Origin: Actinomycetota bacterium
GTDB lineage: Bacteria > Actinomycetota > Actinomycetes > S36-B12
Length of the DNA stretch: 64,000 nt
Assembly (NCBI GenBank): GCA_009699015.1
Contig: WLOY01000003.1
Location: 273 to 64,272, forward strand
Reading direction: 5' to 3'
The notes beneath the pieces were generated by a model. That model did not search any database and was not told where the DNA came from. It was given only the letters and a program-made list of their open reading frames with translations. The translations under genes were made by a program, and so were the position numbers. This document shows positions 46,705 to 64,000 of this stretch, one piece after another. Within the stretch, counting starts at the first letter, position 1, and the number at the start of each line of letters is the position of its first letter.

Positions 46705-46767
46705 CCGCCGATCCATCCACGAAATCCACCGTTCATTGAAAAGACCAACCCCACGAAGGAGAAGAGC

Positions 46768-48455: not shown

Positions 48456-48473
48456 TCCTGAGTCCGGCGGTCC

Positions 48474-49249: not shown

Positions 49250-49428
49250 GTCATCTCCAGTCGACTGTCTGGTCGTCCGTTGGGGTCCGGATGGGACCGT
49301 ACCAGCGGAATATGTACTTACCGTAGTCTGATGCTAGTAACATGCCCCCGTCACGGCACTGCCTTACCCGCATCCAGCGTGGCACCCCCGAGCGACGCAC
49401 TGCGCCGCACTGAGCGAAGAGGTATGAC

Positions 49429-50193: not shown

Positions 50194-50228
50194 CCGACAC
50201 CAGGCCTCGAGCGATCGCGCCTCAGACG

Positions 50229-51808: not shown

Positions 51809-52794
51809 GCGCGCGCCCGGGAGGCGTCAAGCCCTTCCGCTTCGCCATCCAGGCCTACCGCAGCGAATCGCGCAGGGAGTGGTGCGATCTCGCCCGCAAG
51901 GTCGAGTCCCTCGGCTACTCGACCCTATTCCTCGCCGATCACTACCTCGGTCCCGGCGAGCTGATCGAGCCGACCGGCCACCGGGTGCAGACCCTCGCCT
52001 CGATCCCGGCGATGGCCGCGGCCGCGGTCGTCACCGACACGCTCCGCATCGGATCGCGCATGACCTGCGTGAGCTACCACCTGCCGACCGTCCTGGTGAA
52101 GGAGATGGCGTCGATCGACGTGCTCTCCGAGGGCCGCCTGGAGATCGGGCTCGGGGCCGGCTGGCTCGCGAACGAGTATGAGGCGCTCGGCATCCCATTC
52201 GAGGGAGCCGGACGCCGCATCGAACTGCTGCGCGAGACGACGGAGCTCATGATCGCGGCCTACTCGGGCGAGCCGGTCGACTACCGCGGTCAGCAGGTCA
52301 CCTCGCATGGCTACACGGCGGTCCCGGCCACGATCCAGCAGCCTCACCCGCCGATCATGATCGGCGGTGGCGCGCCGAAGGTTCTCGGTCTCGCCGGTGA
52401 GCTCGCCGACATCGTGAGCATCAACTTCAACAACAGTGCCGGTGTCGTCGGCAGCTTGAGCATCGCGAGCTCGACGGCCGAGGAGACCGACAAGAAGATC
52501 GCCTGGGTGCGCGAGGGAGCAGGCGACCGGTTCGACTCGATCGAGCTCGAGACGGCGTGCTACTTCGTGGCGGTCGATGGGGTCTCAGAGATAACCGCCG
52601 AGTCGCTCATGGCCCGTACGAACCAGACGAGGGAGGAGCTCGTCGACTTCCCTCATGCAGCGGTCGGCAGCGTCGCCGAGATCTGCGAGGCCCTCATCCG
52701 CAGGCGCGACCGCTACGGCTTCTCCTACATCACCGTCGGTGATGCCAATATCGACGCATTCGCGCCGGTCGTCGCGCAACTCACCGGAAAGTGA
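51805..52794 (+). CDS. LLM-class F420-dependent oxidoreductase (MSMEG_2516-like subfamily by N-terminal pattern)
   Basis: 329 aa from ATG 51805. KPFRFAIQAYRSESRREWCDLARKVESLGYSTLFLADHYLG..., LEIGLGAGWLANEY. Confidence 0.8.
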   Translation: MSARPGGVKPFRFAIQAYRSESRREWCDLARKVESLGYSTLFLADHYLGPGELIEPTGHRVQTLASIPAMAAAAVVTDTLRIGSRMTCVSYHLPTVLVKEMASIDVLSEGRLEIGLGAGWLANEYEALGIPFEGAGRRIELLRETTELMIAAYSGEPVDYRGQQVTSHGYTAVPATIQQPHPPIMIGGGAPKVLGLAGELADIVSINFNNSAGVVGSLSIASSTAEETDKKIAWVREGAGDRFDSIELETACYFVAVDGVSEITAESLMARTNQTREELVDFPHAAVGSVAEICEALIRRRDRYGFSYITVGDANIDAFAPVVAQLTGK

Positions 52795-53600
52795 ACATGA
52801 CCAAGGAATATTCGCTCGCTCACCTGTCCATGATCGAGGTGCCGCCGATCGGCCTCGTACGCGCCGCCCAGCACGCGGGCTTCAACTACACCGGCTTTCG
52901 GCTGACCCCGACCTCGTCCGGCATCGATCACGGCATCCTCGGCAACGGCGGGGCCATCAGGGAGCTCAAGTCCGCCATCGACGACTCCGGGATCGGAGTC
53001 CTCGACCTCGAAGTCATCCGAATCAAAGAGGACGGACCTACGGCCGACCCAATGGCCCTGTTCGAGGCGGCAGAGTACCTCGGTGCCCGCTATGTCATCA
53101 CGACCCTCGAGGACCCCGATCCAGTTCGTCGCGTCGAGTCCTTGGCGCTGCTCGCCGAGCAGGCGGCCGAGTATGACGTGGCCTTGGCCGTCGAGTTCAT
53201 GCTCTTCTCCTCTGCGTCGACGCTGCAGGCTGCCTGCGAATCGGTTCTGGCGACTGGCGTGTCGAATGTCGTCGTCCTCGCCGACGTCCTGCATCTCGTG
53301 CGGTCCGGCGGCGTCCCGGATGACATGCTCGACTACCCGGCGCGGCTTTTCCCCTACGTCCAGATCTGCGGGGCACAGGGCGCGGCGGCGGCTCCTGATG
53401 CGGCAACGGCCCGGGCGGAGGCGGTCACCGCGCGCCTCATGCCGGATCAGGGGGATCTGCCTGTCCGGGAGTTCACCGAGTGCGTCCCCGCCGGGGCCGT
53501 ACTGAGCATCGAGTGCCCGCTCGCCGGGCTCGGCAATCCCAGCGATCCGGCAGCACTCGCTGTCGAACTCCTCGCCTCGGCCCGACGGGCATGCGAATGA
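52791..53600 (+). CDS. Sugar phosphate isomerase/epimerase (xylose-isomerase-like TIM barrel) family protein
   Basis: 269 aa. The alternating beta-alpha pattern and the ...VALAVEFMLFS..., ...VLADVLHLVRSG... blocks are compatible with the AP_endonuc_2 fold. ATGA-type overlaps with both neighbours. Confidence 0.65.
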   Translation: MNMTKEYSLAHLSMIEVPPIGLVRAAQHAGFNYTGFRLTPTSSGIDHGILGNGGAIRELKSAIDDSGIGVLDLEVIRIKEDGPTADPMALFEAAEYLGARYVITTLEDPDPVRRVESLALLAEQAAEYDVALAVEFMLFSSASTLQAACESVLATGVSNVVVLADVLHLVRSGGVPDDMLDYPARLFPYVQICGAQGAAAAPDAATARAEAVTARLMPDQGDLPVREFTECVPAGAVLSIECPLAGLGNPSDPAALAVELLASARRACE

Positions 53601-54361
53601 CGACATCGAAGGCGACGCCGCTCGAGATCGACGGCCTGGCCAACGCCCGTGACCTCGGAGGGCTGCGGACCGGCGATGGCCGGATCGTGCGGCGGGGGGC
53701 TGCTGTCCGCTGCGACAACCTCCTCAGCCTCACCGCAAAGGGACACCAGGACCTCATTGAGATTGTGGGTCCGCGGACCGTCATCGACCTGAGGATGGAG
53801 CTCGAGGTGGAGCGCGGCGGGTACACCTTCACCGACGAGACGATCACCGTGCTGAACTACCCCATGCTCCCGCTCTCCGGCGTGAACCAGGAGCAGATCG
53901 ATGCCGGAGCGTGCGATAACCTCATCGACGACTACATGGGGCAGATCGAGGTCAACGGGGACGCCGTCGTCAAGGCCCTTCGCGTGATCGCCGAGCCCGA
54001 GCAGCATCCCGTGGTCTACCACTGCACCGCGGGCAAGGATCGCACCGGCATCGTCACGGCGATGCTCCTGGGAATCCTCGGCGTCGACGACGCGACGATT
54101 GCTGCGGACTATCACGAAACGACGGCGAACATGGTGCCCATCATCGCGCGAATGCGCAGCGCACAGGTCTACAAGGACAACGGCCTCGCCTATGCGCCCG
54201 ACTGGATCTTCGAGTCGGAGCCGGAGACCATGCTCGCCTTCCTCACCCGGATGACCCAGCGGTATGGAAGCGCCGAGGCGTGGGCGCTGGGCCGGGGCCT
54301 GAGTCCAGCCGAGATCGTCAGTATTCGTGCGGACCTGCTCGTTGATGAGTCCGGGGACTGA
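53597..54361 (+). CDS. Tyrosine-phosphatase-fold protein (Y_phosphatase3-like)
   Basis: NARDLGG near the N-terminus and the C-x5-R P-loop HCTAGKDRTG. ATG 53591 is an alternative start. Confidence 0.75.
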   Translation: MTTSKATPLEIDGLANARDLGGLRTGDGRIVRRGAAVRCDNLLSLTAKGHQDLIEIVGPRTVIDLRMELEVERGGYTFTDETITVLNYPMLPLSGVNQEQIDAGACDNLIDDYMGQIEVNGDAVVKALRVIAEPEQHPVVYHCTAGKDRTGIVTAMLLGILGVDDATIAADYHETTANMVPIIARMRSAQVYKDNGLAYAPDWIFESEPETMLAFLTRMTQRYGSAEAWALGRGLSPAEIVSIRADLLVDESGD

Positions 54362-54376
54362 CCGGCCCGCGAACGG

Positions 54377-55126
54377 CTACTGAATGGTCTCGCCCCCGTC
54401 GACGACGAGTGTCGCTCCGGTCATGAAGCTCGCATCGTCGCTCAGCAGGAAGCACACGGCGGCGGCCAGTTCCTCTGCCTGGGCTACCCGCTTGAGCGGG
54501 ATGTTGGCGCCGAACATCTCAGCGCCCTTCTCCAGCGTGCCGCCGCGTGCGAGCATGAGCGGCTCGGTCATGCCGGTGAGAGTGCGCCCGGGTGCAACGC
54601 AGTTCACGCGGACGGCGGGCGCTGCCTCGAGGGCGAACTGCCGGGTGAATCCGGTGATCGCCGCCTTTGCCGCACCGTAGGGAACATTGAGCCGCTGCGC
54701 GACGATCGATGCCGTCGAGGCGATGGTGACGAGGGATCCGGCCCCGCGCGACTGCATGATCGGGTTCGTGTACTTCGCGGTCAGGAAGGTGCCGCCGACG
54801 TGCACCTCCATCAACCGATTGAAGCGGGCTGAGTCCCATTCCGAGATGAGGTCGAACTCGGCGTGACCGGCGCAGGCGAGCACGAGGTCGATGCCGCCGA
54901 GCTTGGCGACCGTGGCATCCACCGCGGCCTTCACCTGGGCCTCATCGGCGACATTCGCTGACAGCCCGATGCAGCCGGGGAGTTCCGCAGCGACGGCCTG
55001 GGCCTTTGCGAGGTCCAAGTCGACGATGGCCGCGACCCCGCCCTCGGCGACGACGCGCGCGGCCGTCGCCCGGCCGATGCCGCTGGCGCCACCGGTCACG
55101 AAGAGGATCTTGTTCTCGAAGCGCAT
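54377..55126 (-). CDS. SDR family oxidoreductase
   Basis: 249 aa from ATG 55126. ILFVTGGASGIGRAT, YGAAKAAITGFTRQFALE. Confidence 0.85.
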   Translation of the reverse strand: MRFENKILFVTGGASGIGRATAARVVAEGGVAAIVDLDLAKAQAVAAELPGCIGLSANVADEAQVKAAVDATVAKLGGIDLVLACAGHAEFDLISEWDSARFNRLMEVHVGGTFLTAKYTNPIMQSRGAGSLVTIASTASIVAQRLNVPYGAAKAAITGFTRQFALEAAPAVRVNCVAPGRTLTGMTEPLMLARGGTLEKGAEMFGANIPLKRVAQAEELAAAVCFLLSDDASFMTGATLVVDGGETIQ

Positions 55127-55176
55127 GGGAGTCTCCAATTTCAATCAGCGAGGAATGAGGTGAGGGCCAGACGCGA

Positions 55177-55704
55177 TCAGTGCGAACCCGAGGGGGAGTC
55201 GCTCGGCCGGGCACCCTCGGACGCCTTCCACATCTTCGCGCTGTCGAAGCCGATCCGGGTCACCGGGACGAGTTCGAGAACGACCCGCTCAGGGGAGTCG
55301 AGCATCGTGCGGAAGGCCTCGGCTTTTTCGGGCTCACCCGGGCGCATCGCATTCGCGAACTCCGGCAGGATGCGGTCGATGGTCTCGCGATCCGTGTGGA
55401 CGATCGCGTTGCACTTGTAGGTGATGGACCGTCGCTCCTTCACCGAGGACCCCTTGGACGTGACGGCGATGCTCACCCGCGGATCCTTGCGGATCGACGC
55501 GATGCGCGGGCGTTCCTCGCTCGCGGTGAGCCAGAAGATGCCATCGCGGTAGATGAAGTTCACGATGACGCCCATCGGCCAGCCCTCCTTGCCCGACCAG
55601 ATGAGCGTGCATTCGATCTGCGCGTTGAGTAACTCCAGTTCGTCATCAGTATCAAGGCTGTAGGACTTGACGTCCTCCCAGTTCTGTGCCTGTGCTGAAG
55701 TCAC
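55177..55704 (-). CDS. Pyridoxamine 5'-phosphate oxidase-fold protein (possibly F420-dependent)
   Basis: 175 aa. ...CTLIWSGKEGWPMGVIVNFIYRDGIFWLTASEERPRIASIRKDPRVSIAV... is a split-barrel PPOX pattern. Confidence 0.7.
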   Translation of the reverse strand: MTSAQAQNWEDVKSYSLDTDDELELLNAQIECTLIWSGKEGWPMGVIVNFIYRDGIFWLTASEERPRIASIRKDPRVSIAVTSKGSSVKERRSITYKCNAIVHTDRETIDRILPEFANAMRPGEPEKAEAFRTMLDSPERVVLELVPVTRIGFDSAKMWKASEGARPSDSPSGSH

Positions 55705-55768
55705 GGTTTTCCTCTCAGAATGCTACGAATCGAATGGTTGCTAGGGTGCCACATCCCGGGGGCAATTC

Positions 55769-55805
55769 CTAGATAGTCCTTGCATAAACTAGCAAGGCTG
55801 TCTAG
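55769..55805. promoter_or_regulatory. Imperfect 14/15-bp inverted repeat, candidate operator in a divergent promoter region
   Basis: CTAGATAGTCCTTGC-ataaacta-GCAAGGCTGTCTAG lies between the divergent PPOX (start 55704) and SnoaL-like (start 55908) genes. The function is inferred. Confidence 0.4.
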
Positions 55806-55853
55806 TTTCGGGTGGGGTGGATGCCGCGATGTCCACTACGCCACGCCCGACCC

Positions 55854-55879
55854 GCTCACCCGACCTGCTCACCCGACCG
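55854..55879. repeat. 13-bp tandem repeat x2 (GCTCACCCGACCK) in the 5' leader of the SnoaL-like gene
   Basis: gctcacccgacct / gctcacccgaccg, read directly. Confidence 0.8.
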
Positions 55880-55907
55880 CTGAATCGACCCAGCCCAGGA
55901 GGCACAC

Positions 55908-56354
55908 GTGCCGCTCGACCTGCAGACCATCTCCGACCGGATGGAGATCGACGACCTCCTCGTCCGCTACTCCCGGGCAATCGACACCAAGGACTTCGCC
56001 GAACTCGAGAACCTGTTCACCCCCGATGGCGAGTACGACGCGGGCAGCCTGGGCCACCCGAAGAGCGCCAAGGCGGTGCGGGAGATGATCGAGGGCGCGA
56101 TCGGCGGCCTAGACGCGACGATGCACCTGGTGGCGAAGAGCCTCATCGACGTTGACGGCGATTCGGCCGAGGTACGCACCTACCTGATCTCGCAGCACAT
56201 CCGCGAGTCGACCCCCGGCCCGGTCAAGCACTACTCCATCGGAGCCGAGTACGCCGACCGGGTCGTCCGCACTGCCGACGGCTGGAAGTTCGCCTATCGT
56301 CGGCTCGACCGAATGTGGAAAGAGGGCGATCGCGCCGTCATCGTCCGCGACTAG
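55908..56354 (+). CDS. SnoaL-like / NTF2-fold protein
   Basis: 148 aa from GTG 55908, 5 nt after an AGGAGG RBS. DRMEIDDLLVRYSRAIDTKDFAELENLFTPDGEYD is a SnoaL_4-type N-terminus. Confidence 0.7.
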   Translation: MPLDLQTISDRMEIDDLLVRYSRAIDTKDFAELENLFTPDGEYDAGSLGHPKSAKAVREMIEGAIGGLDATMHLVAKSLIDVDGDSAEVRTYLISQHIRESTPGPVKHYSIGAEYADRVVRTADGWKFAYRRLDRMWKEGDRAVIVRD

Positions 56355-56371
56355 CCTGTCGCCACGCACCA

Positions 56372-56428
56372 GAGCAAGCCATCTTCATCCGAGCAAGCCA
56401 TCTTCATCCGAGCAAGCCATCGTCATCG
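56372..56428. repeat. 19-bp tandem repeat x3 (GAGCAAGCCATCTTCATCC) immediately upstream of the first PEP-utilising-domain gene
   Basis: Units at 56372-56390 and 56391-56409 are identical. The unit at 56410-56428 has 2 mismatches. A partial fourth GAGCAAGG at 56433-56440 merges into the RBS. Confidence 0.9.
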
Positions 56429-56448
56429 ACCGGAGCAAGGGAGTCACC

Positions 56449-58182
56449 ATGGACCGTTGGATCGCCGACACGGAGCAGTCCGAGCGCTTTCCCATCTACA
56501 CGCGCGGCAACGCCGACGAGGTGGGCCCGGACCCGTTCACCCCGCTCAACTGGTCGCTTCCCTGGGAGCAGGGCGTCGTGCCCGGCACCGCGTGGGGATG
56601 GATCCACATGGGGACCTTCAAGGAGCAGGAGTTCCTGTGGACCCAGCCGGAGACCTACGGGTCGTGGGGCGGCTACTTCTACAACCAGGTCTCGGTCGGA
56701 CGCGTGTTCGGCCACCGCATGCCGGGCCTCACCGCCGATGCGATCGACGTGAGCTTCTTCGGCCAGAACCCGGCTGTGCCGAAATATGTCGAGGACCCGC
56801 GCGACAACGATGAGGAGTGCTCGGCGGCACTCGGGGCGACGTTCGCCGGGATCCTCGGCAACAGCCAGCAGCCATTGCTCGACGAGTTCCTCGCCGAGGT
56901 GCAGGCCTGGGTCGCCTCGAGGCCGGACCTGTCGTCGGTGAGCGATGCTGAGCTCGTCGAGTACGGGCGTGCCATGGCCAAGCGCCAGAACCGCACGTGG
57001 GATGTCTATGCGCAGGTCGTCGTCGGCGCGACGGTCGGACCGGCCATCGTCCAGGGCGTTGCGGACGCGGTCGGCAAGCCGGAGCTCGGCATCACCATCT
57101 TCGCTGCGCTCGGCGAGGTGGCGTCCGCCGGCGTCCCGGAGCGCATCTGGGACCTGTCACGAATGGTGAACGGGTCGCCGGAGATCTCGGCCGCCTTCGA
57201 CTCGGGGGTCGATGGACTCCATGAGCGCCTCGCAGCACTGCCGTCGGCAGCCTCGTTCAATGCGGCTTTCGCGGGGCTGCTCGATGATTTCGGCCACCGC
57301 GGCGTCAACGAGTGGGAGCTGAGCGCCGACACCTGGCGGATCAACCCGAGCCTCGCCTACGACATGATCGATCGAGTGCGAAAGCAGGATGACAGCAATT
57401 CGCCCGAGATCCGGTCCGCGCAGGCGATGGCGAACCGAATCGCTGCGGAGGCCGAGCTCAGCGCGCTCGTGGCGGGCGACGAGGCGACCGCGGGCATGCT
57501 CGCCGCCGGCATCAACTCCGGCCAGACGTCGTACCGCATGCGCGAGGCGGGCAAGAACGCCGCGGTGAAGCTGTTCCACGAGCCGAAGCTGGCGTTCCGC
57601 GAGCTCGGCCGGCGCATGAACGAGCGCGGCTCGATCGCTGACCCGATGGACATCTTCATGCTCCTGGACTCCGAGCTCGATGGCTTCCTCGTCGATCAGT
57701 CGGGATGGAGTGCGACCCTCGCCCAGCGCTCGGTCGACTTCGCGACCCTCAAGGACCTCGACCCGCCGTACGTCGTCATGCATGGCCAGCCGATCCCCCC
57801 GATCAGCGAGTGGCCGCGGAAGGGCTCCGTCGGCGGGGCCGCGGAGGCACCCGGCACGATGATCAAGGCGGTAGCGGGCTCGCCGGGCTCGGTGACGGCG
57901 CGCACGCGGATCATCTCCGATCTCTCGCATGCCGATGAGCTGGAGCCGGGTGAGATCCTCGTCTGCACGACGACCGACCCCTCCTGGGTTCCGCTGTTCA
58001 TGATCGCCAGCGCGGTCATCTGCGAGATCGGCGCTCCCGGCAGCCATGCGGTCATCGTGAGCCGGGAGATCGGTGTGCCCTGCGTCGTGTCGCTCCTGGG
58101 AGCCAGCCACAAGCTGCCGACCGGGACCCTCGTCGAGCTGAACGGATCGACCGGCACTGTCACTGTGGTCGAATCCGCCTGA
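56449..58182 (+). CDS. PEP-utilising-enzyme mobile-domain protein (rifampin-phosphotransferase-like substrate plus swivel-His domains, no ATP-grasp domain recognised)
   Basis: 577 aa. The C-terminus GEILVCTTTDPSWVPLFMIASAVICEIGAPGSHAVIVSREIGVPCVV is the phospho-histidine swivel domain. The N-terminus begins directly with WIADTEQSERFPIYTRGNADEVGPDPFTPL. Confidence 0.8.
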   Translation: MDRWIADTEQSERFPIYTRGNADEVGPDPFTPLNWSLPWEQGVVPGTAWGWIHMGTFKEQEFLWTQPETYGSWGGYFYNQVSVGRVFGHRMPGLTADAIDVSFFGQNPAVPKYVEDPRDNDEECSAALGATFAGILGNSQQPLLDEFLAEVQAWVASRPDLSSVSDAELVEYGRAMAKRQNRTWDVYAQVVVGATVGPAIVQGVADAVGKPELGITIFAALGEVASAGVPERIWDLSRMVNGSPEISAAFDSGVDGLHERLAALPSAASFNAAFAGLLDDFGHRGVNEWELSADTWRINPSLAYDMIDRVRKQDDSNSPEIRSAQAMANRIAAEAELSALVAGDEATAGMLAAGINSGQTSYRMREAGKNAAVKLFHEPKLAFRELGRRMNERGSIADPMDIFMLLDSELDGFLVDQSGWSATLAQRSVDFATLKDLDPPYVVMHGQPIPPISEWPRKGSVGGAAEAPGTMIKAVAGSPGSVTARTRIISDLSHADELEPGEILVCTTTDPSWVPLFMIASAVICEIGAPGSHAVIVSREIGVPCVVSLLGASHKLPTGTLVELNGSTGTVTVVESA

Positions 58183-58183
58183 G

Positions 58184-58897
58184 ATGACCGTAATCAGCCC
58201 CCCGGTATCGCCGGAGCCGCCGTTTTCCGTGCGCGAGCCATTCCTCATCGGCTCGCGCACGGCGACGCGCGTCACGCTCATCCGCCATGGCCAGCAGCAG
58301 TACCCGGTGAGCGACGTCTTCACGCACGGGGACTGGGTCGACCCACACCTGTCGGACATCGGCAGGAGGCAGGCCGTTGCCGTTGCCATGGCTCTGCAGG
58401 ACGAGCCGATCGACGTCCTGTTCTCGAGCACCCTGTCGAGGGCCATCGATACGGCGGCCGCCATCGGCGAGCCCCACGGGCTCATGCCAGTGCAACTGCA
58501 TGAGCTGCGCGAAATCGAGTCCTACCGGGATATCGGCGCCGACGAGAACCCCGCCGACCTCGTTCCCGAATCCGAGTGGGTCGAACGCCAGCGCAGGTTC
58601 CGGCTCGAGCGCCGCTGGGACCTCATGCCGTTCGGCGAGCCTGGTGCCGAATTCAGGGCGCGGAGCCTCGCTGCCGTCAACGGCCTGGCCGATGCGCATC
58701 GGGGCAAGCACATCGTCATTGTGGCGCACGGAGGCGTCATCAACGCCTACCTCAGCGAGGTGCTCGGCACCGACGAGGACCTGTTCTTCCTCCCGACCCA
58801 CACGGCGATCAGCCGTGTGGTGCTCGACCATGAGATCAGGGTCATCCGGAGCATCAACGAGCACCAGCACCTAGGAGGGGACCTGCTCACGTATTGA
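58184..58897 (+). CDS. Histidine phosphatase family protein (PGM-like branch)
   Basis: RHG motif (VTLIRHGQQQY) and a second His block IVIVAHGGVINAYL. The ATG lies 1 nt after the upstream stop. Confidence 0.8.
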   Translation: MTVISPPVSPEPPFSVREPFLIGSRTATRVTLIRHGQQQYPVSDVFTHGDWVDPHLSDIGRRQAVAVAMALQDEPIDVLFSSTLSRAIDTAAAIGEPHGLMPVQLHELREIESYRDIGADENPADLVPESEWVERQRRFRLERRWDLMPFGEPGAEFRARSLAAVNGLADAHRGKHIVIVAHGGVINAYLSEVLGTDEDLFFLPTHTAISRVVLDHEIRVIRSINEHQHLGGDLLTY

Positions 58898-58988
58898 TCG
58901 ATGAGCGGCCCCGCCTGACGGATGCACCGCTCGACCTTGCGAACGAGCCGCGAGATTCGTATGCCAGCCATAGCGAAAGGATCCTCGA

Positions 58989-60194
58989 ATGACCGAAGCA
59001 GTCCCGCAGTACCAGGCGGCCGCGGTCTTCGAGGCGGTTGAGCGTGAAAGCGCACTCGACCTCATGGGCAGGCTCGTGGAGCACCGGCGTAACGGCACGA
59101 CCGACATGGTGGCCGAGCAGCGCCGCGAGCCGATTGCCAAGTACCTCGACCAGGGGCTCTGGGAGCGGGAGATCGCCGAGATCTTCCATGTGATCCCGCT
59201 GCCGGTCGCGACATCGGCCGAACTGCCGAGCGTGGGCGACTTCAAGGCGATGCGGGTCGTCGGCCGCGAGATCGTGCTCGTCCGGGCCGCTGACGGAACC
59301 GTCAGCGCGATGCTGAATGTCTGCCGCCACCGCTCGATGAAGGTCGTACCCACGGGTTGCGGCAGTGCCCGGCGCTTCACCTGCCCCTACCACTCCTGGA
59401 CATACGACACCGAGGGCCGGCTCACCGGCGTGCCGGGGGAGGAGACCTTCGGAGCGGTTGACCGCGAGGAGAACGGCCTCGTGCGGCTGGCCTGCGACGA
59501 GCGTGCGGGCATCATCTTCGCCTGCCTCACGCCCGGCGTCCCCATGGACCTCGACGCCTGGCTAGGCGACGCGCTGCCCCTGCTCGAGCAGCTCGGCCTG
59601 GACAAGAGCCACCACTTCTCCACCCGCGAGCTTGCGGGCCCGAACTGGAAGGTGACTGTCGATGGGTTCCTCGAGGGGTATCACTTCTCCTCGCTGCACC
59701 CGAACACGGTGGCGCTCACGAACTACAGCAACATGGCTGCCTTCGACTCGTACGGCCCGCACATGCGCCATGTCTTCGCACTCAAGTCGATCGATCGATT
59801 CCTTGACGCCCCCCGCGAGGAGTGGGAGCCGGCCGAGGCGCTCGGGCTCGTCTACTGGATCTTTCCCGGGATGGCGATCGCGGGCGGGTGGCGTGAGCGG
59901 ACGGTCGTATCGATCATGCTTCCGGGGGACTCGTGGGCGGAGTCGATGACGCGGCAGACGGTGCTGCTCCGGCATGCGCCGCAGACCCCGCAGGAGCTCC
60001 TCGAGGCCGAGCGCACCGCGGACTGGTTCTATGCCGCCTTCCGTGACGAGGACTACTCGGCGCAGGCCGAGGTCATGAACGGCCTGTCGTCGCTCGCGGA
60101 CAAGGAGATGATCATCGGCCGCAATGAGCCGGGCGTGCAGCATGTGCACGAGACGATCGACCGGATCCTTCGGGGCGACTCGCCCCATCGCTGA
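58989..60194 (+). CDS. Rieske [2Fe-2S] non-haem-iron oxygenase, alpha subunit only
   Basis: CRHRSMKV...CPYHSWTYD Rieske ligands and the mononuclear-iron motif EGYHFSSLH (H-x4-H). No beta-subunit ORF follows. Confidence 0.85.
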   Translation: MTEAVPQYQAAAVFEAVERESALDLMGRLVEHRRNGTTDMVAEQRREPIAKYLDQGLWEREIAEIFHVIPLPVATSAELPSVGDFKAMRVVGREIVLVRAADGTVSAMLNVCRHRSMKVVPTGCGSARRFTCPYHSWTYDTEGRLTGVPGEETFGAVDREENGLVRLACDERAGIIFACLTPGVPMDLDAWLGDALPLLEQLGLDKSHHFSTRELAGPNWKVTVDGFLEGYHFSSLHPNTVALTNYSNMAAFDSYGPHMRHVFALKSIDRFLDAPREEWEPAEALGLVYWIFPGMAIAGGWRERTVVSIMLPGDSWAESMTRQTVLLRHAPQTPQELLEAERTADWFYAAFRDEDYSAQAEVMNGLSSLADKEMIIGRNEPGVQHVHETIDRILRGDSPHR

Positions 60195-60375
60195 TGGAAT
60201 GGCGGTGAGGGCCTATCGCGATCGCGTCGCATGCGCCTGACTTACTGCACATCTTGCCTACTAACCGGTGAGATCCCCTGACAGTCACCCCACGGTGATG
60301 GCAGACTGACTCTGCGCAGCGGGCGGTCCTGCCCACGCGCCCTGCGCAACGTCGCAGCCGATGAGAGGAAGAGTG

Positions 60376-62088
60376 ATGACCGAGAAGGCCTGGATCATCG
60401 ACACCGAGCCGAGCAAGCGGTTCCCCGTCTTCACCCGACTGAACGCCGCCGACGTCATGCCCGAGCCGATCACCCCGCTCGGGGCCTCGATGTGCTGGAA
60501 GCCGATGGTGCTTCCGGGCTGGGCATCGGGCTATGTCCAGGATGCGTGCTTCACTGCCGATGAGATGGTCGAGGAGTCGGCGGTTGCCGGCTTCCTTTAC
60601 GGCTACCTGTACATCAACCAGAGCTCGGTTCGGGTCCTCGGCATTCGCAAGGGCATGACCTGGGAGCTCATCGACCAGATGTTCTTCAATTCCCCGGGTG
60701 CACCGGCGCATGCTGCCTCCGAGGCGGATGCGAACGAGGCGCTGTCAGCTGCTGCGCCGGCCCGGTCGGGCTGGGTGCTCACCACGACGAACTTCCCGGA
60801 GGTGGAGGAGGACGAGATCCTCGCCGACCGGATCCGCAATGAGCGCCCTAACCTCAAGGGCCTGAGCAACCGCGCGCTCATTGCCCGTGCCCGCTCGGTC
60901 ATGCCGTACGAGCGCCTCGCCTGGCGTTCGGAGCAGATGGGCTCCTCGAATGCCGCACTCGGCCCGGCTGTTGCCGGCATGATGCTCGGCGACAAGGCAC
61001 ACCTGCTCGTCTCGATCCTCGGCCAGGCCGGCGAGGTCGAGTCCGCTGCCCCGACGTATGCGCTCTGGGCGCTGTCGCGCACGCTGCGCGCGGATGCGAA
61101 GACGACGGCGCTGTTCGACCAGGGCCTCGCGGCCGTCGAGGCTGCCTACTCAAGCGCCTACGGCCAGTTCTGGTCGGAGTTCGGCGCCTTCATCTCGGAG
61201 TTCGGCTTCCGGGGCCCGAGCGAGTGGGACCTGGGGACCGACTCCTGGGAGTCCAAGCCCTCGCTCGCGCTGGCGCTCGTCGATCGCATGCGCCAACTCG
61301 GCGACGAGGATTCCCCGCATGCGAAGCAGGCTGCGCACGCCGGGGCGACCGACCGCGCGATGGCGGAGGCAACGTCCGGCATGGATGCGGCAACCGAGGC
61401 GGCATTCCGCGGCGCCATCGCCTCTGCACGCCGATTCGCCGGCTGGCGCGAGAGCGGCAAGTCCTCGTGCACGAAGATCATGAACGAGGCACGCATTGCG
61501 CTGCTCGAGCTGGGCTTCCGGCTCGAGGCTGACGGGGTCCTGGATCATGCCCGGCAGATCTTCATCGCACTCGATGAGGAGCTCGACGCCCTGGCGCTCG
61601 GTGGCACCCCAACGCTCAAGGCCACGATCCGCGAGCGCGAGAGCGCATGGAAGGAGCTGTGGAACCTCGAGGTGCCGATGTTCATCGATACCTCGAAGGG
61701 CATTCCGCCCATCTCGTCCCTGCCGCGCAAGGGCGACTCGCAGGTCGAGCGCGCATCGGTCGGGACCACGCTCACCGGCGCAGCCGCGTCGCAGGGCATC
61801 GTCGAGGGCAAGGTTCGCGTCGTCCTCGGCACCGACAGCATCTCGGACTTCCAGCCCGGCGAGATCCTTGTCGCGCCGCAGACCGACCCGTCATGGACCC
61901 CGTTGTTCATGGTGGCGAGCGGTGTCATCGTGAACACGGGCTCGATGGGCTCGCATGCGATGATCGTCGCCCGCGAGCTCGGGATCCCCTGCGTGGGAGG
62001 CATTCCCGGTGCCACGCAGATTCTCAAGACCGGCGATACCGTTCGCGTGAATGGCGCGACCGGCGTGGTAGAGGTTCTCGCGGTCTAG
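60376..62088 (+). CDS. PEP-utilising-enzyme mobile-domain protein, paralogue of 56449-58182
   Basis: 570 aa from ATG 60376, after a GAGAGGAAGAG RBS. WIIDTEPSKRFPVFTRLNAADVMPEPITPL at the N-terminus and GEILVAPQTDPSWTPLFMVASGVIVNTGSMGSHAMIVARELGIPCV at the C-terminus. Confidence 0.8.
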   Translation: MTEKAWIIDTEPSKRFPVFTRLNAADVMPEPITPLGASMCWKPMVLPGWASGYVQDACFTADEMVEESAVAGFLYGYLYINQSSVRVLGIRKGMTWELIDQMFFNSPGAPAHAASEADANEALSAAAPARSGWVLTTTNFPEVEEDEILADRIRNERPNLKGLSNRALIARARSVMPYERLAWRSEQMGSSNAALGPAVAGMMLGDKAHLLVSILGQAGEVESAAPTYALWALSRTLRADAKTTALFDQGLAAVEAAYSSAYGQFWSEFGAFISEFGFRGPSEWDLGTDSWESKPSLALALVDRMRQLGDEDSPHAKQAAHAGATDRAMAEATSGMDAATEAAFRGAIASARRFAGWRESGKSSCTKIMNEARIALLELGFRLEADGVLDHARQIFIALDEELDALALGGTPTLKATIRERESAWKELWNLEVPMFIDTSKGIPPISSLPRKGDSQVERASVGTTLTGAAASQGIVEGKVRVVLGTDSISDFQPGEILVAPQTDPSWTPLFMVASGVIVNTGSMGSHAMIVARELGIPCVGGIPGATQILKTGDTVRVNGATGVVEVLAV

Positions 62089-62095
62089 TCATGGC

Positions 62096-62140
62096 GATGA
62101 GGCGGGGCGGGCGTGAGTAGCCCGCCCCGCCTCATCTTTG
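62096..62140. terminator. Bidirectional intrinsic terminator-like hairpin between convergent genes
   Basis: GATGAGGCGGGGCGGGC (62096-62112), loop gtgagta, then GCCCGCCCCGCCTCATC (62120-62136). This is a perfect 17-bp GC-rich stem followed by TTTG. Confidence 0.75.
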
Positions 62141-62144
62141 CGTT

Positions 62145-64000
62145 CTAGAGCAGCATCGCGAGCTCGAATGCCTGACGTGTCGCAAAGGTCATCCGTCGAG
62201 GCGCGAATGCGTCGCCGAGCAGGTGCACCCTCGGATGATGCGGCAGCACGGCGCGGTAGAGAGCGTCGTTTCCGATGCCCCCGGTCACGAGGACGACCGA
62301 GTCGATGCCGTCGACCGTGAAGCGGCGGCCGCTGTAGGAGTGGGCGAAGTCAACCCGATCAGGGTGGATCTCGACGGCCCGGGCATTCTGCAGGATCTGC
62401 ACCCCCCCGTTGTCGAGGCTGGCGAGCATCGCCCCGATCGAGTACTTCCCGACGAGCGGCGAAGGCCCGGGGGTGCGGAAGGCGAGGGTGACCTCGTGGC
62501 CCAGCGACGCGAGGTGGTCGGACACCGACAGGGGTGCCGGTCCGTCGTCTTCCGCGATGACGAGCACGCGCGCCCCGAGCGGACGCGCTGCACCGAGGAT
62601 CACGGCGTCGGCGCCGGCCACGTGCGGAAGGTACTCGCCGGGGATCCCGGGATGGCGGCCTCGGGCACCGGTCGCGAAGGCGATGACATCGGCGCCGGAG
62701 TCGAGCACGCTGCGCGCCTCGGCCCGTCGCCCGAGATACGTCGGCACGTCGAGGTCGGCGAGCCGGCGGGTCGACCAGTCGATCCAGTCCTGGTACGGGG
62801 CGTTCGAGCGAAGCTGCGCCGCGATCGCGAATCGGCCGCCAAGCTCGGACTTCGCCTCCCACAGGGTCACCCGGTGCCCTCGCTCAGCGGCTGTCGCGGC
62901 GAGTTCCATGCCGGCCGGGCCGCCGCCGATGACGAGCAGGCTCACGGGGACTTCAGCGGCTTCGATCGGTGGCTTGCTCTCCCGCCCCGCCTGCGGGTTG
63001 GTGCCGCATCCGAATCCGAGCCCCTCGAGGGTGTAGCGGTGGATGCAGTCGTTGAGCGCGATGCACGGGCGCACGCTCTCGCCCTGGCCCGCGAGGTTCT
63101 TCGTGAGCCACAGCGGGTCGGCGATGAGCGCGCGGACGAGTCCGACCATGTCGGCCTGACCGCTCGCGATGATGCGCTCGGCCGTCTCGGCATGGACGAC
63201 CCTGCCGACGTAGAGGACGGGCAGGCTCGTCGCCTCCTTGGCCTCGCCGCACATCTTGGCCCAGTGGCCCTCCGGGTACATGCCGTGCTGAATGTAGGAC
63301 ACCGGCCCCCAGTTGCCGCCGACATCGAGGTTGAAGAAGTCGATGGTGCCGTCGGCCTCGAAGGACTGCATGAACCGCATGCACTCGTCGATCTCGTAGC
63401 CGCCGTCCATGTACTGATCCATGGCGAGGCGAAGGCCCAGGGTGATGGGCCGTCCCACCCGCTCGCGGATGCCGTCGACGATGCGGCGCAGGCAGCGCAG
63501 CCGGTTCTCGTAGGAGCCGCCGAACTCATCGACGCGCTTGTTCGTGAGGGGGGAAAGGAACCACTCGACCATGTCGTCGTGATTGGCGTGGATCTCGATC
63601 GAGTCGACGCCCGCATCGGCTGCAATGGCGGCAGACTCGACGTACTCGCTGATGATCCACTCGATCTCGGCGTGGCGGAGGACGTGGACGCCGCGGTGAT
63701 CGAGGTTGCCGGAGAACGTCGATGACGGTGCACTCGGCATGCCGCCCTGCTGCACCAGCTGGATGCCGAGGTAGGCGCCCTTCGCGTGGACCCGGTCGGC
63801 GAAGGAGCCCATTCGGTCGTGGAACCTCGGGTGCCGGAAGATGCCGGCCTCCTTGCCTAGGGCGCCCACGCCGGTGGGCTCGAAGCCGGGGATGTGCACG
63901 TGCTTGACGTGCCCCGTGGGGCCGCCGATCCAGGCGAAGCCGTCGTCGACCCTTGCCATCCAGTAGTTGACGAGGTCCTCGAAGCGGGAGTCGTCGGCGG
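62145..64000 (-). CDS. Old-yellow-enzyme-type NADH:flavin oxidoreductase fused to an FAD/NAD(P)-binding domain (2,4-dienoyl-CoA-reductase-like); 5' end beyond window
   Basis: OYE TIM-barrel blocks (GIQLVQQGG, DSIEIHANHDD, RLAMDQY) are followed by a GGGPAGME dinucleotide-binding motif. The frame stays open upstream of Met 63959 (...ADDSRFEDLVNYW) to the window edge. Confidence 0.85.
   Translation of the reverse strand, partial: ADDSRFEDLVNYWMARVDDGFAWIGGPTGHVKHVHIPGFEPTGVGALGKEAGIFRHPRFHDRMGSFADRVHAKGAYLGIQLVQQGGMPSAPSSTFSGNLDHRGVHVLRHAEIEWIISEYVESAAIAADAGVDSIEIHANHDDMVEWFLSPLTNKRVDEFGGSYENRLRCLRRIVDGIRERVGRPITLGLRLAMDQYMDGGYEIDECMRFMQSFEADGTIDFFNLDVGGNWGPVSYIQHGMYPEGHWAKMCGEAKEATSLPVLYVGRVVHAETAERIIASGQADMVGLVRALIADPLWLTKNLAGQGESVRPCIALNDCIHRYTLEGLGFGCGTNPQAGRESKPPIEAAEVPVSLLVIGGGPAGMELAATAAERGHRVTLWEAKSELGGRFAIAAQLRSNAPYQDWIDWSTRRLADLDVPTYLGRRAEARSVLDSGADVIAFATGARGRHPGIPGEYLPHVAGADAVILGAARPLGARVLVIAEDDGPAPLSVSDHLASLGHEVTLAFRTPGPSPLVGKYSIGAMLASLDNGGVQILQNARAVEIHPDRVDFAHSYSGRRFTVDGIDSVVLVTGGIGNDALYRAVLPHHPRVHLLGDAFAPRRMTFATRQAFELAMLL

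What the first reader, a model, noticed from the sequence alone, without database searches (positions are those of the whole stretch)
56449..62088. Two ATP-grasp-less swivel-histidine (RPH / PEP-synthase-like) paralogues bracketing a histidine phosphatase and a stand-alone Rieske oxygenase
Seen: ORFs 56449-58182 and 60376-62088 are clear paralogues. They share the N-terminal pattern W-I-x-D-T-E-x-S-x-R-F-P-x-[YF]-T-R-x-N-A-x-[ED]-V. They also share the C-terminal block TDPSW-x-PLFM...G-x-x-GSHA-x-IV-x-RE-x-G-[IV]-PCV, which is the PEP-utilising phospho-histidine domain. Both proteins start directly with the region that follows the nucleotide-binding domain in rifampin phosphotransferase. I recognise no ATP-grasp/PPDK_N segment in either ORF, and no separate ATP-grasp ORF anywhere in the 64 kb. 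An RHG-motif histidine phosphatase starts 1 nt after the stop of the first paralogue. It is followed by a Rieske alpha subunit (CRH...CPYH, H-x4-H) with no beta subunit or reductase nearby. Established: in rifampin phosphotransferase, PEP synthase and phenylphosphate synthase, the swivel His carries phosphate from an ATP-grasp domain or subunit to the acceptor. Inference: this four-gene block could be a phosphorylation/dephosphorylation plus hydroxylation module for a hydroxylated hydrophobic substrate (phenolic or sterol-like). Its phospho-donor component is missing or unconventional. I am not aware of a characterised system with this arrangement.
Basis: partly seen in the sequence, partly recalled or inferred. 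Interest (0 to 1): 0.7.

Follow-up and report, generated by a model that had tools for sequence, protein, structure and literature searches.

The report
Split kinase pair lacking its ATP-binding partner
Two related genes encode the substrate-binding and phosphate-carrying half of a rifampin-phosphotransferase-like kinase, next to a phosphatase and an oxygenase. This is an uncharacterised variant of the known "phosphorylate, oxidise, dephosphorylate" breakdown pathways, and its likely phosphate-loading partner lies just beyond the window.

Summary
ORF A (56449-58182) and ORF B (60376-62088) are full-length paralogues (36% identity). Each has an RPH-type substrate-binding domain plus a C-terminal swivel-His domain and no ATP-grasp. 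They bracket an RHG histidine phosphatase and an alpha-only Rieske oxygenase. A probe made from a genuine PPDK_N domain found no ATP-grasp in the 64 kb.

The architecture is not unprecedented. PpsAB, CreHI and HpeHI are characterised two-component dikinases whose H subunit has this build, and the Hpe pathway pairs such a kinase with a phosphatase. ORFs A and B belong to a different, uncharacterised family of about 340 clusters at 50% identity whose members start directly with this domain. No I-type ATP-grasp gene lies beside them in 80 related loci.

The block sits in a roughly 19-kb island conserved in freshwater actinobacterial genomes. Relatives of the same gene set occur in Rhodococcus megaplasmids, Geodermatophilus and Haloechinothrix.

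The best donor candidate lies 1.5 kb past the window end: a ~200-aa protein (p204) followed by a PPDK-like protein. Its His and PEP domains are intact, but its nucleotide-binding motifs are degenerate. The trio of H-like gene, p204 and PPDK-type gene, with Rieske genes, recurs as an operon on a Diaphorobacter plasmid.

Verdict: a new variant of a known kind. The substrate is unknown.

The parts
55908..56354 (+). SnoaL_4/NTF2-like gene, first gene of the same-strand run that ends at ORF B
   Evidence: Precomputed Pfam PF13577. It is syntenic directly upstream of ORF A in the near loci. No terminator-like site lies between it and ORF B.
56449..58182 (+). ORF A (577 aa): H-type component with an RPH-like substrate-binding domain and a swivel phospho-His domain (His533); no ATP-grasp
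58184..58897 (+). Histidine phosphatase superfamily branch 1 protein (237 aa; RHG 34-36, His182); starts 1 nt after the stop of ORF A
   Evidence: Pfam His_Phos_1 E 5e-37; motifs; closest solved structures are cofactor-dependent mutase/phosphatase family members; syntenic
58989..60194 (+). Alpha-only Rieske non-haem iron oxygenase (401 aa)
   Evidence: Pfam Rieske + Ring_hydroxyl_A. Motifs CRH, CPYH and Hx4H. The best full-length solved match is the carnitine monooxygenase CntA. Rieske genes lie near H-like genes in 46 of 80 loci.
60376..62088 (+). ORF B (570 aa; an alternative ATG at 60361 gives 575 aa): second H-type paralogue, His527
62096..62136 (.). 17-bp-stem G+C-rich hairpin followed by a T-rich tail, between the convergent ORF B and the OYE-like gene; likely operon end
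55177..55704 (-). PNPOx-like (flavin/F420-type) protein, divergent from the operon; the neighbour most widely retained next to H-like genes
   Evidence: Precomputed Pfam PF01243 (weak). Homologues lie beside the H-like gene in 41 of 80 loci, including Acidimicrobiia.
53597..54361 (+). Y_phosphatase3-type phosphatase, a second phosphatase in the island
   Evidence: Precomputed Pfam PF13350. The same family is adjacent to an H-like gene in Geodermatophilus. In Rhodococcus opacus B4 it follows a swivel-His/p204-like fusion protein.
48932..49249 (-). Plant-type [2Fe-2S] ferredoxin (105 aa), candidate electron donor for the Rieske oxygenase
   Evidence: Precomputed Pfam PF00111. It is conserved in the island. 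A 42%-identical ferredoxin lies directly upstream of the H-like gene in Haloechinothrix alba.
45097..64000 (.). The part of the conserved catabolic island that lies inside the window: AMP-binding, five SDRs, two LLM oxidoreductases, ThuA, AP_endonuc_2, SnoaL-like genes, the operon above, and an OYE-like flavoprotein cut by the window end at 62145-64000 (minus strand)

Best explanation
ORF A and ORF B are the substrate-specific "H" components of a split, RPH-like small-molecule phosphotransferase. Each binds a substrate in a domain homologous to the rifampin-binding domain. Each carries a phosphoryl group on the histidine of its C-terminal swivel domain (His533 in A, His527 in B). Homology and the structure model show this much.

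The next steps are inferred. With the co-transcribed histidine phosphatase and alpha-only Rieske oxygenase they would form a phosphorylate / oxidise / dephosphorylate module. A hydroxyl group, phenolic or alicyclic, of a hydrophobic catabolic substrate would be phosphorylated. The phospho-intermediate would be oxygenated, with electrons coming through the island's ferredoxin. The phosphate would then be removed. The module sits inside a larger oxidoreductase-rich catabolic island.

The swivel histidines cannot be loaded by A or B themselves. The most likely loader is the PPDK-type protein and its ~200-aa partner (p204, probably the Rv1126c type). These are encoded 3.4-4.0 kb downstream of ORF B, just outside the window.

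In this lineage the PPDK-type protein keeps its catalytic His and an intact PEP/pyruvate domain. Its nucleotide-binding domain keeps the fold but has lost the canonical ATP-binding motifs. The ultimate donor may therefore be PEP rather than ATP. This last step is the most speculative.
For: H-type identity:
- Pfam, NCBIfam and PDB profile matches.
- A high-confidence model matching RPH over its whole length.
- The catalytic-type His, the RE motif after it and TDPSW are invariant in 51 sequences of both subfamilies.
- About 340 clusters at 50% identity (E<=1e-10) match the N-terminal half. In the top 150 the match starts within the first residues of nearly every target, so the lack of an ATP-grasp is a family trait.

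Precedent:
- HpeHI, CreHI and PpsAB are split RPH homologues.
- The HpeH His-to-Gln mutant is dead.
- The Hpe pathway couples the kinase with a phosphatase (PMC12167813, PMC9618137).

Module:
- The order A, His phosphatase, Rieske, B is conserved in more than 25 genomes.
- There is a terminator only after B.
- His_Phos_1, Rieske, LLM, SDR, SnoaL and PNPOx genes recur with H-like genes in a palsa MAG, Haloechinothrix, Ilumatobacteraceae, Geodermatophilus and Rhodococcus megaplasmids.
- One relative (P0498) is an SDR fused to an H-like protein.

Donor:
- PPDK-like is detected in 20 near loci. Five further near loci hold ORF B but neither gene: three extend only ~1.4-6 kb past it and two (L015, L018) about 6 kb.
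- On a Diaphorobacter (Betaproteobacteria) plasmid the genes run DUF7065, H-like, p204 homologue (39% identity, E 5e-36), short PPDK (PPDK_N + swivel), flanked by two alpha-only Rieske genes.
- p204 homologues abut PPDK-type genes on 11 further plasmids.
- The Rhodococcus sp. ZPP island holds two H-like genes, two His phosphatases, Rieske, ThuA, LLM, ADH and p204 + short PPDK.
- R. opacus B4 has a fusion of a swivel-His domain and a p204-like domain.
- VadK, a truncated PPDK, autophosphorylates on His and binds its operonic partner Rv1126c (PMC13400623).

PEP option:
- The PEP-domain motifs are intact.
- The ATP-grasp motifs are lost, but the domain is conserved at 66-72% among orthologues and keeps the PPDK fold.
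Against: - No biochemical data exist for this family, and the substrate is unknown.
- The p204/PPDK-like pair is not adjacent in one close sublineage. L015 and L018 have none in the ~6 kb they hold downstream of ORF B.
- It is also absent from the Acidimicrobiia loci and from Geodermatophilus within 10 kb.
- In Streptomyces and Actinophytocola the same pair sits with acyl-CoA dehydrogenase, ChsH2-OB and thiolase genes and no H-like gene. It therefore has a role that does not need A or B.
- The PPDK-type proteins carry their own swivel His. A His-to-His hand-over between two swivel domains has no precedent in this superfamily.
- Some p204 homologues are annotated as MarR-type regulators, so p204 may simply regulate transcription.
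- Homology of p204 to Rv1126c itself was not tested.
- His_Phos_1 proteins can be mutases rather than phosphatases.
Confidence: 0.45

Rival explanations
1. This is a conventional two-component dikinase whose ATP-grasp "I" subunit is encoded elsewhere in the genome. The partner could be PpsB/HpeI-like or a VadK-like short PPDK. It may serve several H paralogues at once. The adjacent PPDK-like gene would then be unrelated to A and B.
For: - All characterised relatives use an ATP-grasp partner (PMC12167813).
- On Rhodococcus plasmids the short PPDK with a canonical PPDK_N lies 7-35 kb from the H-like genes rather than next to them.
- Genomes carry several H-like paralogues (up to 4 places per plasmid). 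This fits one loader serving many H subunits.
- The PPDK-like/p204 pair occurs without H-like genes in Streptomyces.
Against: - In PpsAB, CreHI, HpeHI and AcvAB the two genes are adjacent.
- Here no ATP-grasp was found in 80 loci of up to 21 kb, or in the window, apart from the PPDK-like N-termini.
Confidence: 0.25
2. A and B work without any dedicated loader, as transphosphorylases. The swivel His picks up phosphate from a phosphorylated metabolite or pathway intermediate and passes it to another hydroxyl or another molecule. The two paralogues could handle donor and acceptor, with the His_Phos_1 protein acting as phosphatase or mutase.
For: - HpeH alone catalyses phosphotransfer from 4-phosphoacetophenone to acetovanillone (PMC12167813).
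- The family consistently lacks an adjacent ATP-grasp.
- APH/EcKL-type kinases recur nearby in other genomes and could make the first phospho-donor.
- Many Arg, Lys and Glu residues are invariant across both subfamilies. This is compatible with a shared charged ligand.
Against: - The window island has no APH-type kinase.
- Transphosphorylation alone gives no net activation.
- The cross-phylum linkage with PPDK-type genes would be left unexplained.
Confidence: 0.12
3. A and B are not small-molecule kinases. They would be acceptors or relay proteins of a VadK-like histidine phosphotransfer system that regulates the neighbouring enzymes.
For: VadK is described as a regulatory histidine kinase that binds metabolic enzymes (PMC13400623). 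A and B carry a conserved phospho-acceptor His.
Against: - A large, conserved RPH-type substrate-binding domain (about 470 aa) is hard to explain for a pure relay.
- Fusion to an SDR and operonic coupling with a phosphatase and an oxygenase point to metabolite chemistry.
Confidence: 0.08
4. They are decaying remnants of rifampin phosphotransferase (antibiotic resistance) genes that lost their ATP-grasp domain.
For: Automatic names such as "rifampicin phosphotransferase", and RPH is the best structural match.
Against: - The reading frames are full length and intact.
- There are hundreds of clusters of the same length that start with this domain.
- Catalytic motifs are invariant.
- Scores are 113-128 bits against a 999-bit cut-off for the RPH equivalog model.
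- The catabolic context is conserved.
Confidence: 0.02

Closest known systems
Two-component small-molecule dikinases: HpeHI/AcvAB (hydroxyphenylethanones), CreHI (4-cresol), PpsAB (phenylphosphate synthase)
   Same: - The H/A subunit is an RPH-type substrate-binding domain plus a C-terminal swivel-His domain without an ATP-grasp.
- They occur in catabolic clusters.
- A dedicated phosphatase later removes the phosphate (HpeD).
- In the Cre pathway an oxygenase acts on the phospho-intermediate. That detail is from my memory of Du et al. 2016, which was not readable here.
   Different: - No adjacent I/B-type ATP-grasp gene.
- A and B match the PpsA-type NCBIfam models (PRK08296) only over the swivel domain. 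They are closer to single-chain PRK06241/RPH-type proteins.
- Two H paralogues share one operon.
- The phosphatase is His_Phos_1, not the NagD/HAD type.
- The oxygenase is a Rieske enzyme.
- The motif before the His is GAPGSH / GSMGSH instead of T/S-x-x-G-G-x-x-x-H.
Rifampin phosphotransferase (RPH-Lm; PDB 5FBS/5FBT/5HV1)
   Same: The best structural match over the whole length of ORF A (TMq 0.69). The catalytic His aligns, and TDPSW and the surrounding swivel motifs are shared.
   Different: - RPH is a single chain with an N-terminal ATP-grasp of about 310 aa, which is absent here.
- Sequence identity is 18-19%.
- Scores are far below the RPH equivalog cut-off.
- The context is catabolic, not resistance.
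VadK (Rv1127c) with its operonic partner Rv1126c: a truncated PPDK acting as an autophosphorylating histidine kinase
   Same: A PPDK-derived protein with a catalytic swivel His, encoded next to a ~200-aa partner. On plasmids, p204 homologues abut short PPDK genes of this type. This pair is the candidate loader for A and B.
   Different: - The protein next to the window keeps the PEP/pyruvate domain that VadK lacks.
- It has lost the canonical ATP-grasp motifs that VadK keeps.
- VadK is reported to regulate methylcitrate-cycle enzymes, not to load H-type kinases.
- The equivalence of p204 and Rv1126c is inferred from position and size only.
PTS Enzyme I / HPr (PEP-driven His phosphorelay)
   Same: If the PPDK-like protein uses PEP, the flow would be PEP, then swivel His, then a further carrier, then substrate. 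That would resemble the PTS. The His and PEP domains are homologous.
   Different: There are no HPr, EIIA or EIIB proteins, the proteins are cytoplasmic and soluble, and the final acceptor domain is RPH-like. This is a functional analogy only.
Alpha-only Rieske monooxygenases (CntA, GbcA, Stc2 group)
   Same: Rieske domain plus catalytic domain without a beta subunit. The best full-length solved match is CntA, and the best NCBIfam match is GbcA.
   Different: Scores are far below every equivalog cut-off (102 against 670 bits for GbcA). The substrate is unknown, and no FNR-type reductase gene lies in the island, only a ferredoxin.

Membership tests
Rifampin phosphotransferase (RPH) | N-terminal ATP-grasp (PPDK_N) domain in the same polypeptide | tested here: not met
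   Pfam finds no PPDK_N. The proteins start with the substrate-binding domain.
Rifampin phosphotransferase (RPH) | RIF-binding-type domain followed by a swivel domain with a catalytic His | tested here: met
   Foldseek 5fbt, E 7e-21, TMq 0.69. His533 aligns to the RPH catalytic His.
Rifampin phosphotransferase (RPH) | Score above the NCBIfam equivalog cut-off (NF041857, 999 bits) | tested here: not met
   113 bits (A) and 128 bits (B)
Two-component small-molecule dikinases (PpsAB/CreHI/HpeHI) | H/A subunit with substrate-binding and swivel-His domains and no ATP-grasp | tested here: met
Two-component small-molecule dikinases (PpsAB/CreHI/HpeHI) | Adjacent gene for a stand-alone ATP-grasp I/B subunit (about 340-360 aa) | tested here: not met
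   None was found in the window, in the 8 kb beyond it, or in 80 related loci. The only homologous domain is the divergent N-terminus of the PPDK-like protein.
Two-component small-molecule dikinases (PpsAB/CreHI/HpeHI) | Sequence membership of the PpsA/CreH/HpeH clade (about 45% pairwise identity; PRK08296-type models) | tested here: not met
   PRK08296 models match only residues ~438-575 at 96-110 bits against cut-offs of 578-730. Direct comparison with HpeH or CreH was not possible because their sequences were not held.
Two-component small-molecule dikinases (PpsAB/CreHI/HpeHI) | Swivel motif T/S-x-x-G-G-x-x-x-H (PMC12167813) | tested here: inconclusive
   The His is invariant, but A reads C-E-I-G-A-P-G-S-H and B reads V-N-T-G-S-M-G-S-H.
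Two-component small-molecule dikinases (PpsAB/CreHI/HpeHI) | ATP-dependent phosphorylation of a small-molecule hydroxyl | not testable with these tools
   This needs enzyme assays.
VadK/Rv1126c-type PPDK-derived phosphotransfer module (for the neighbouring p204 + PPDK-like pair) | PPDK-derived protein with a catalytic swivel His and a ~200-aa operonic partner | tested here: met
   The GGSASH433 motif and PF00391 are present. p204 ends 3 nt before the PPDK-like start. p204 homologues abut short PPDK genes.
VadK/Rv1126c-type PPDK-derived phosphotransfer module (for the neighbouring p204 + PPDK-like pair) | Canonical ATP-grasp and absence of the PEP/pyruvate domain | tested here: not met
   There is no PPDK_N hit, the motifs are lost, and PEP-utilizers_C is present at E 2e-72.
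VadK/Rv1126c-type PPDK-derived phosphotransfer module (for the neighbouring p204 + PPDK-like pair) | Sequence homology of p204 to Rv1126c itself | not tested
The link rests on gene position and size (PMC13400623).
Histidine phosphatase superfamily, branch 1 | RHG catalytic motif, a second catalytic His, and a Pfam score above the gathering threshold | tested here: met
   127.9 bits against 21.7. R34-H35-G36 and H182 are present.
Alpha-only Rieske oxygenases | CxH...CxxH cluster ligands, a 2-His mononuclear iron site, a catalytic domain, and no beta subunit gene | tested here: met
   No beta subunit family appears in the island.

The most novel reading that the evidence does not exclude
The island would encode a cytoplasmic, PEP-driven phosphorelay for catabolism of hydrophobic hydroxylated compounds. 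A PPDK-derived protein has given up nucleotide binding but kept its PEP domain. With its p204 partner it would load the swivel histidines of interchangeable, substrate-specific RPH-like H proteins (A, B and their many paralogues). More generally, VadK/Rv1126c-type modules would be the long-sought loaders of the large orphan family of proteins that carry PF27448 and PF00391 and no ATP-grasp. That would give VadK-type kinases a defined class of acceptor proteins.
Probability: 0.15. Interest if true: 0.8.

Novelty: new variant of a known kind. Interest (0 to 1): 0.6.

Why it matters
Split RPH-like dikinases have only recently been recognised as initiators of aromatic (lignin-monomer, cresol, phenol) catabolism. 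This finding shows a much larger, uncharacterised sister family of about 340 clusters at 50% identity. It is abundant in freshwater and soil Actinomycetota and on Rhodococcus catabolic megaplasmids. The family never carries or neighbours a classical ATP-grasp subunit, and it is repeatedly wired to phosphatases and oxygenases.

Working out how these proteins are loaded would do three things:
1. Define a new way of feeding phosphate into catabolic pathways.
2. Suggest acceptors for VadK-type truncated PPDKs, which matter in mycobacterial physiology.
3. Annotate hundreds of genes now mislabelled as PEP synthase or rifampicin phosphotransferase.

Cultured carriers make it testable: Rhodococcus sp. 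ZPP, R. pyridinivorans P23, Diaphorobacter sp. HDW4B, Haloechinothrix alba DSM 45207 and Geodermatophilus sp. URMC 64.

Tried and rejected
- A probe built from my recalled E. coli PpsA N-terminal sequence found nothing, not even the PPDK-like N-termini. It is uninformative. I replaced it with a real PPDK_N domain from R. pyridinivorans.
- p204 has no Pfam, NCBIfam or PDB sequence match.
- Large genes next to H-like genes in distant loci were checked as possible ATP-dependent carboxylases or ATP-grasp proteins. They are an HrpA-type helicase, a GH2 glycosidase, an ABC exporter, a molybdopterin oxidoreductase and a methylmalonyl-CoA mutase.
- A sigma-70 promoter scan of the operon found nothing. 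That is expected for a high-G+C actinobacterium.
- Literature searches for this family with Rieske or histidine phosphatase terms gave nothing relevant.
- The primary Cre pathway paper (PMC4813557) is not held.
- I considered the PPDK-like N-domain being a decaying remnant and rejected it. It is conserved at 66-72% among orthologues and folds confidently as a PPDK nucleotide-binding domain.
- Substrate assignment (phenolic, steroid or terpenoid, or glycoside) could not be settled. The neighbouring families fit several of these: P450, RPE65, ChsH2-OB/thiolase, ThuA, AP_endonuc_2 and a sugar-type ABC transporter.

Full report
**Source and setting.** The window is high-G+C (about 67%) chromosomal DNA. 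It carries ATP synthase, murA, nucS and glgB/E/P/X genes. It is 99.8% identical over 17.5 kb to metagenome contigs. Its closest genome relatives are uncultured freshwater "Candidatus Nanopelagicales"/Actinomycetes MAGs, some with 3.4-3.7 Mb chromosomes.

- ORF A (56449-58182, 577 aa) and ORF B (60376-62088, 570 aa; an upstream ATG at 60361 is not used by database gene calls) align end to end at 36% identity, E 1e-102.
- Both quoted motifs are present. The candidate catalytic residues are His533 in A and His527 in B.
- Pfam sees only the PEP-utilizers mobile domain at the C-terminus and no PPDK_N. Precomputed annotation adds PF27448 (Rph_4th).
- NCBIfam models of RPH, PigC/RedH and PRK06241-type "PEP synthases" match only from about residue 215-275 onwards. 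These matches correspond to positions about 530-890 of those roughly 870-aa proteins and fall far below the cut-offs.
- A profile of the family aligns residues 259-577 to Listeria RPH 557-866 and places His533 on the RPH catalytic histidine.
- An AlphaFold2 model of ORF A (51-sequence alignment, pLDDT 91.8, pTM 0.91) matches RPH-Lm over its whole length (5fbt, E 7e-21, TMq 0.69, 617 columns). It matches other proteins only through the swivel domain.
- The proteins are therefore the RIF-binding-like domain plus the swivel domain of RPH, without the ATP-grasp.

**The genes between the paralogues.** The His_Phos_1 gene starts one base after the stop of ORF A and has the RHG motif and the second catalytic His. 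The Rieske gene has the cluster and iron ligands.

**No ATP-grasp in the window.** I checked ten ambiguous ORFs with Pfam. I used precomputed Pfam for 46-64 kb and read all other translations. I then searched all six-frame ORFs of the window and 92 loci with a genuine PPDK_N domain by phmmer and jackhmmer. Only the N-termini of the PPDK-like proteins described below were found.

**Lack of an ATP-grasp is a family trait.**
- Homology searches with A and with B each returned more than 400 clusters. All listed hits are about 550-590 aa and carry PF27448 + PF00391 only.
- An exhaustive search with the N-terminal 258 residues of A found 597, 337 and 74 representative clusters at E<=1e-3, 1e-10 and 1e-30.
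- In the best 150, the match begins within the first residues of nearly every target.
- The single long exception, P0498 (849 aa), is fused to an SDR domain, not an ATP-grasp.

**Conserved context in the source lineage.** In that lineage (ORF A homologues at 67% identity or more) an island of about 19 kb inside the window keeps the same order. It runs AMP-binding, SDR, LLM, SnoaL(-), ferredoxin(-), SDR, ThuA, SDR, LLM, AP_endonuc_2, Y_phosphatase3, SDR(-), PNPOx(-), SnoaL, A, His phosphatase, Rieske, B. The OYE-like and Zn-ADH genes that follow are variably present. A strong hairpin terminator follows ORF B, and none lies between the SnoaL gene and ORF B.

**Conserved context further away.** H-like genes at 33-53% identity recur, often as two paralogues.
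- They occur with Rieske genes (46 of 80 loci) and PNPOx genes (41 of 80).
- Other recurrent neighbours are His_Phos_1, LLM, SDR, SnoaL, P450, AMP-binding, RPE65, ChsH2-OB/thiolase-like and APH genes.
- The same family set appears in Geodermatophilus sp. URMC 64 and in Haloechinothrix alba.
- It also appears on Rhodococcus megaplasmids. Rhodococcus sp. ZPP pRZP2 has two "PEP-utilizing enzyme" paralogues, two histidine phosphatases, LLM, Zn-ADH, a VanB-type reductase, a Rieske alpha subunit, ThuA, NTF2-like proteins and P450s within about 50 kb.

**What is known.**
- HpeHI, CreHI and PpsAB are two-component ATP-dependent dikinases. HpeI is the ATP-grasp. HpeH corresponds to the RIF-binding and swivel domains of RPH.
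- The HpeH catalytic-His mutant is inactive.
- HpeH alone can pass phosphate from 4-phosphoacetophenone to acetovanillone (PMC12167813).
- In the Hpe pathway the phosphorylated compound is carboxylated and then dephosphorylated by HpeD (PMC9618137).
- From memory (Du et al. 2016, not readable here), the Cre pathway oxidises phosphorylated 4-cresol with a P450 before dephosphorylation.
- The proposed logic of phosphorylate, oxidise, dephosphorylate is therefore established.

**What differs from the known systems.** A and B are outside the PpsA/CreH/HpeH clade. PRK08296 models match only the swivel domain. There are two H paralogues per operon. The phosphatase and oxygenase belong to other families. 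No I-type gene is adjacent.

**The donor candidate.** Identical contigs extend past the window. After the OYE-like and Zn-ADH genes come two further genes.
- The first is a 204-aa ORF with no Pfam or PDB match (p204).
- Three bases later an 845-aa PPDK-like protein starts. The pair begins about 3.4-4.0 kb downstream of ORF B, that is 1.5-2.1 kb beyond position 64000.
- The His domain (GGSASH433) and the PEP/pyruvate TIM barrel of this protein align strongly to PPDK structures with the catalytic motifs intact (E 4e-146).
- The N-terminal ~360 residues are only weakly similar (E 3e-7) and get no PPDK_N hit.
- Aligned with a canonical domain, the family has lost GGK, the SMPGMMDT loop and NAQGEDVV (a deletion). 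It has also lost the Q and R of LQxRxGKR, and keeps the Arg that corresponds to R92.
- Even so, the domain is conserved at 66-72% among orthologues, is modelled confidently, and superposes on full-length PPDK. It is functional but probably no longer a standard nucleotide site.
- This "putative PEP-binding protein" family is widespread in Streptomyces, Frankia and Actinophytocola. There it is always preceded by a ~210-aa ORF and followed by acyl-CoA dehydrogenase, ChsH2-OB and thiolase genes, without H-like genes.

**Linkage between H-like genes and PPDK-type modules.**
- PPDK-like is detected in 20 near loci. Five further near loci hold ORF B but neither gene: three extend only ~1.4-6 kb past it and two (L015, L018) about 6 kb.
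- On a Diaphorobacter (Betaproteobacteria) plasmid the genes DUF7065, H-like protein (26% identity to A over residues 17-577, E 3e-37), p204 homologue (39% identity, E 5e-36) and short PPDK (PPDK_N + swivel, no PEP domain) form one same-strand run. Two alpha-only Rieske genes, a VanB reductase and an APH kinase flank it.
- p204 homologues directly abut short PPDK genes on plasmids of six Rhodococcus strains, M. avium, M. branderi, Novosphingobium and Paraburkholderia.
- In ZPP this pair sits beside the second histidine phosphatase of the island.
- R. pyridinivorans pA has an A homologue (36% identity) 7 kb from a short PPDK, among P450, ALDH, SDR, SurE, APH and LLM genes.
- R. opacus B4 encodes a fusion of a swivel-His domain with a p204-like domain, followed by a Y_phosphatase3 homologue.
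- VadK (Rv1127c) is a truncated PPDK that autophosphorylates on His422 with ATP and Mg. It co-purifies with its operonic partner Rv1126c (PMC13400623). I infer, but did not test, that p204 is the Rv1126c-type partner.

**Mechanism.**
- Shown: A and B are H-type proteins with an RPH-like substrate domain and a conserved phospho-His carrier. They are co-transcribed with a phosphatase and an oxygenase, inside a conserved catabolic island.
- Inferred: they phosphorylate hydroxyl group(s) of an unknown hydrophobic substrate. The Rieske enzyme, with the island's ferredoxin, oxidises the phospho-intermediate. The His_Phos_1 enzyme removes, or possibly moves, the phosphate.
- Inferred with less support: the swivel histidines are loaded by the p204/PPDK-type module, and in this lineage from PEP.

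**Rivals.** The alternatives are an ATP-grasp partner elsewhere in the genome, loader-free transphosphorylation as shown for HpeH alone, a regulatory relay, and decayed resistance genes. The last is contradicted by the conservation data.

**Weak points.** The PPDK-type pair is not universally adjacent, and it occurs without H-like genes in Streptomyces. A swivel-to-swivel transfer has no precedent. p204 may be a MarR-like regulator. The substrate is unknown.

**Verdict.** This is a real, conserved and uncharacterised variant of a known kind of system. Its claim of no precedent is not. The "missing donor" has a concrete, testable candidate just outside the window.

Noticed in passing
Beyond the window end (L005:15119-18274, equivalent to window positions 65494-68649); also L087 and L089: This is a widespread actinobacterial "putative PEP-binding protein" family. 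It has the full-length PPDK fold with intact His and PEP domains, but its nucleotide-binding motifs are lost. It is always preceded by a ~200-aa ORF without a Pfam family. In Streptomyces and Actinophytocola it sits with acyl-CoA dehydrogenase, ChsH2-OB/thiolase and SDR genes. Its function is unknown.
   Followed up: partly
L095:6177-8558 (Rhodococcus opacus B4 pROB02): A 793-aa "PEP-utilizing enzyme" has an N-terminal swivel-His domain and a C-terminal p204-like domain. It is followed by a Y_phosphatase3 homologue and an ecdysteroid-kinase-like protein. This natural fusion links the p204 domain to phospho-His carriers.
   Followed up: partly
P0498 (849 aa, from the representative search): A short-chain dehydrogenase domain is fused to the N-terminus of an H-like protein. 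This hints that an alcohol/ketone oxidoreduction and the phosphotransfer act on the same substrate. NCBIfam PRK05865 ("sugar epimerase family protein", 854 aa) also matches the C-terminal ~320 residues of ORF A.
   Followed up: partly
window 50229-53600 and L005:18390-21713: Two ThuA-domain genes, an AP_endonuc_2 (xylose-isomerase-like TIM barrel) gene and a sugar-type ABC transporter flank the island. A ThuA gene also lies next to the Rieske gene in the Rhodococcus sp. ZPP island. Whether a glycoside or cyclitol moiety is involved was not resolved.
   Followed up: no
window 53597-54361: A Y_phosphatase3-type phosphatase is a second phosphatase in the island. The same family is adjacent to H-like genes in Geodermatophilus (L096:9080-9859) and follows the fusion protein in R. 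opacus B4.
   Followed up: partly
L043:9974-13497, L067, L074, and P0393: H-like genes often occur as tandem or nearby pairs in other lineages, but the second copy is not orthologous to ORF B. This suggests repeated duplication into several subfamilies.
   Followed up: partly
L043, L045, L090, L091, L092, L096: APH/EcKL-type small-molecule kinase genes recur near H-like genes and histidine phosphatases in other genomes. They are absent from the window island.
   Followed up: partly
window 42367-43760: Two divergently oriented TetR-like regulator ORFs overlap in the mechanical ORF list. Their long N-terminal extensions look like mis-set start codons rather than real overlap.
   Followed up: no
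window 2737-4175 and 23455-24113: These stretches have no ORF with the strong third-position G+C bias seen elsewhere. The 22-24 kb window also has lower G+C (0.64). They were not examined.
   Followed up: no
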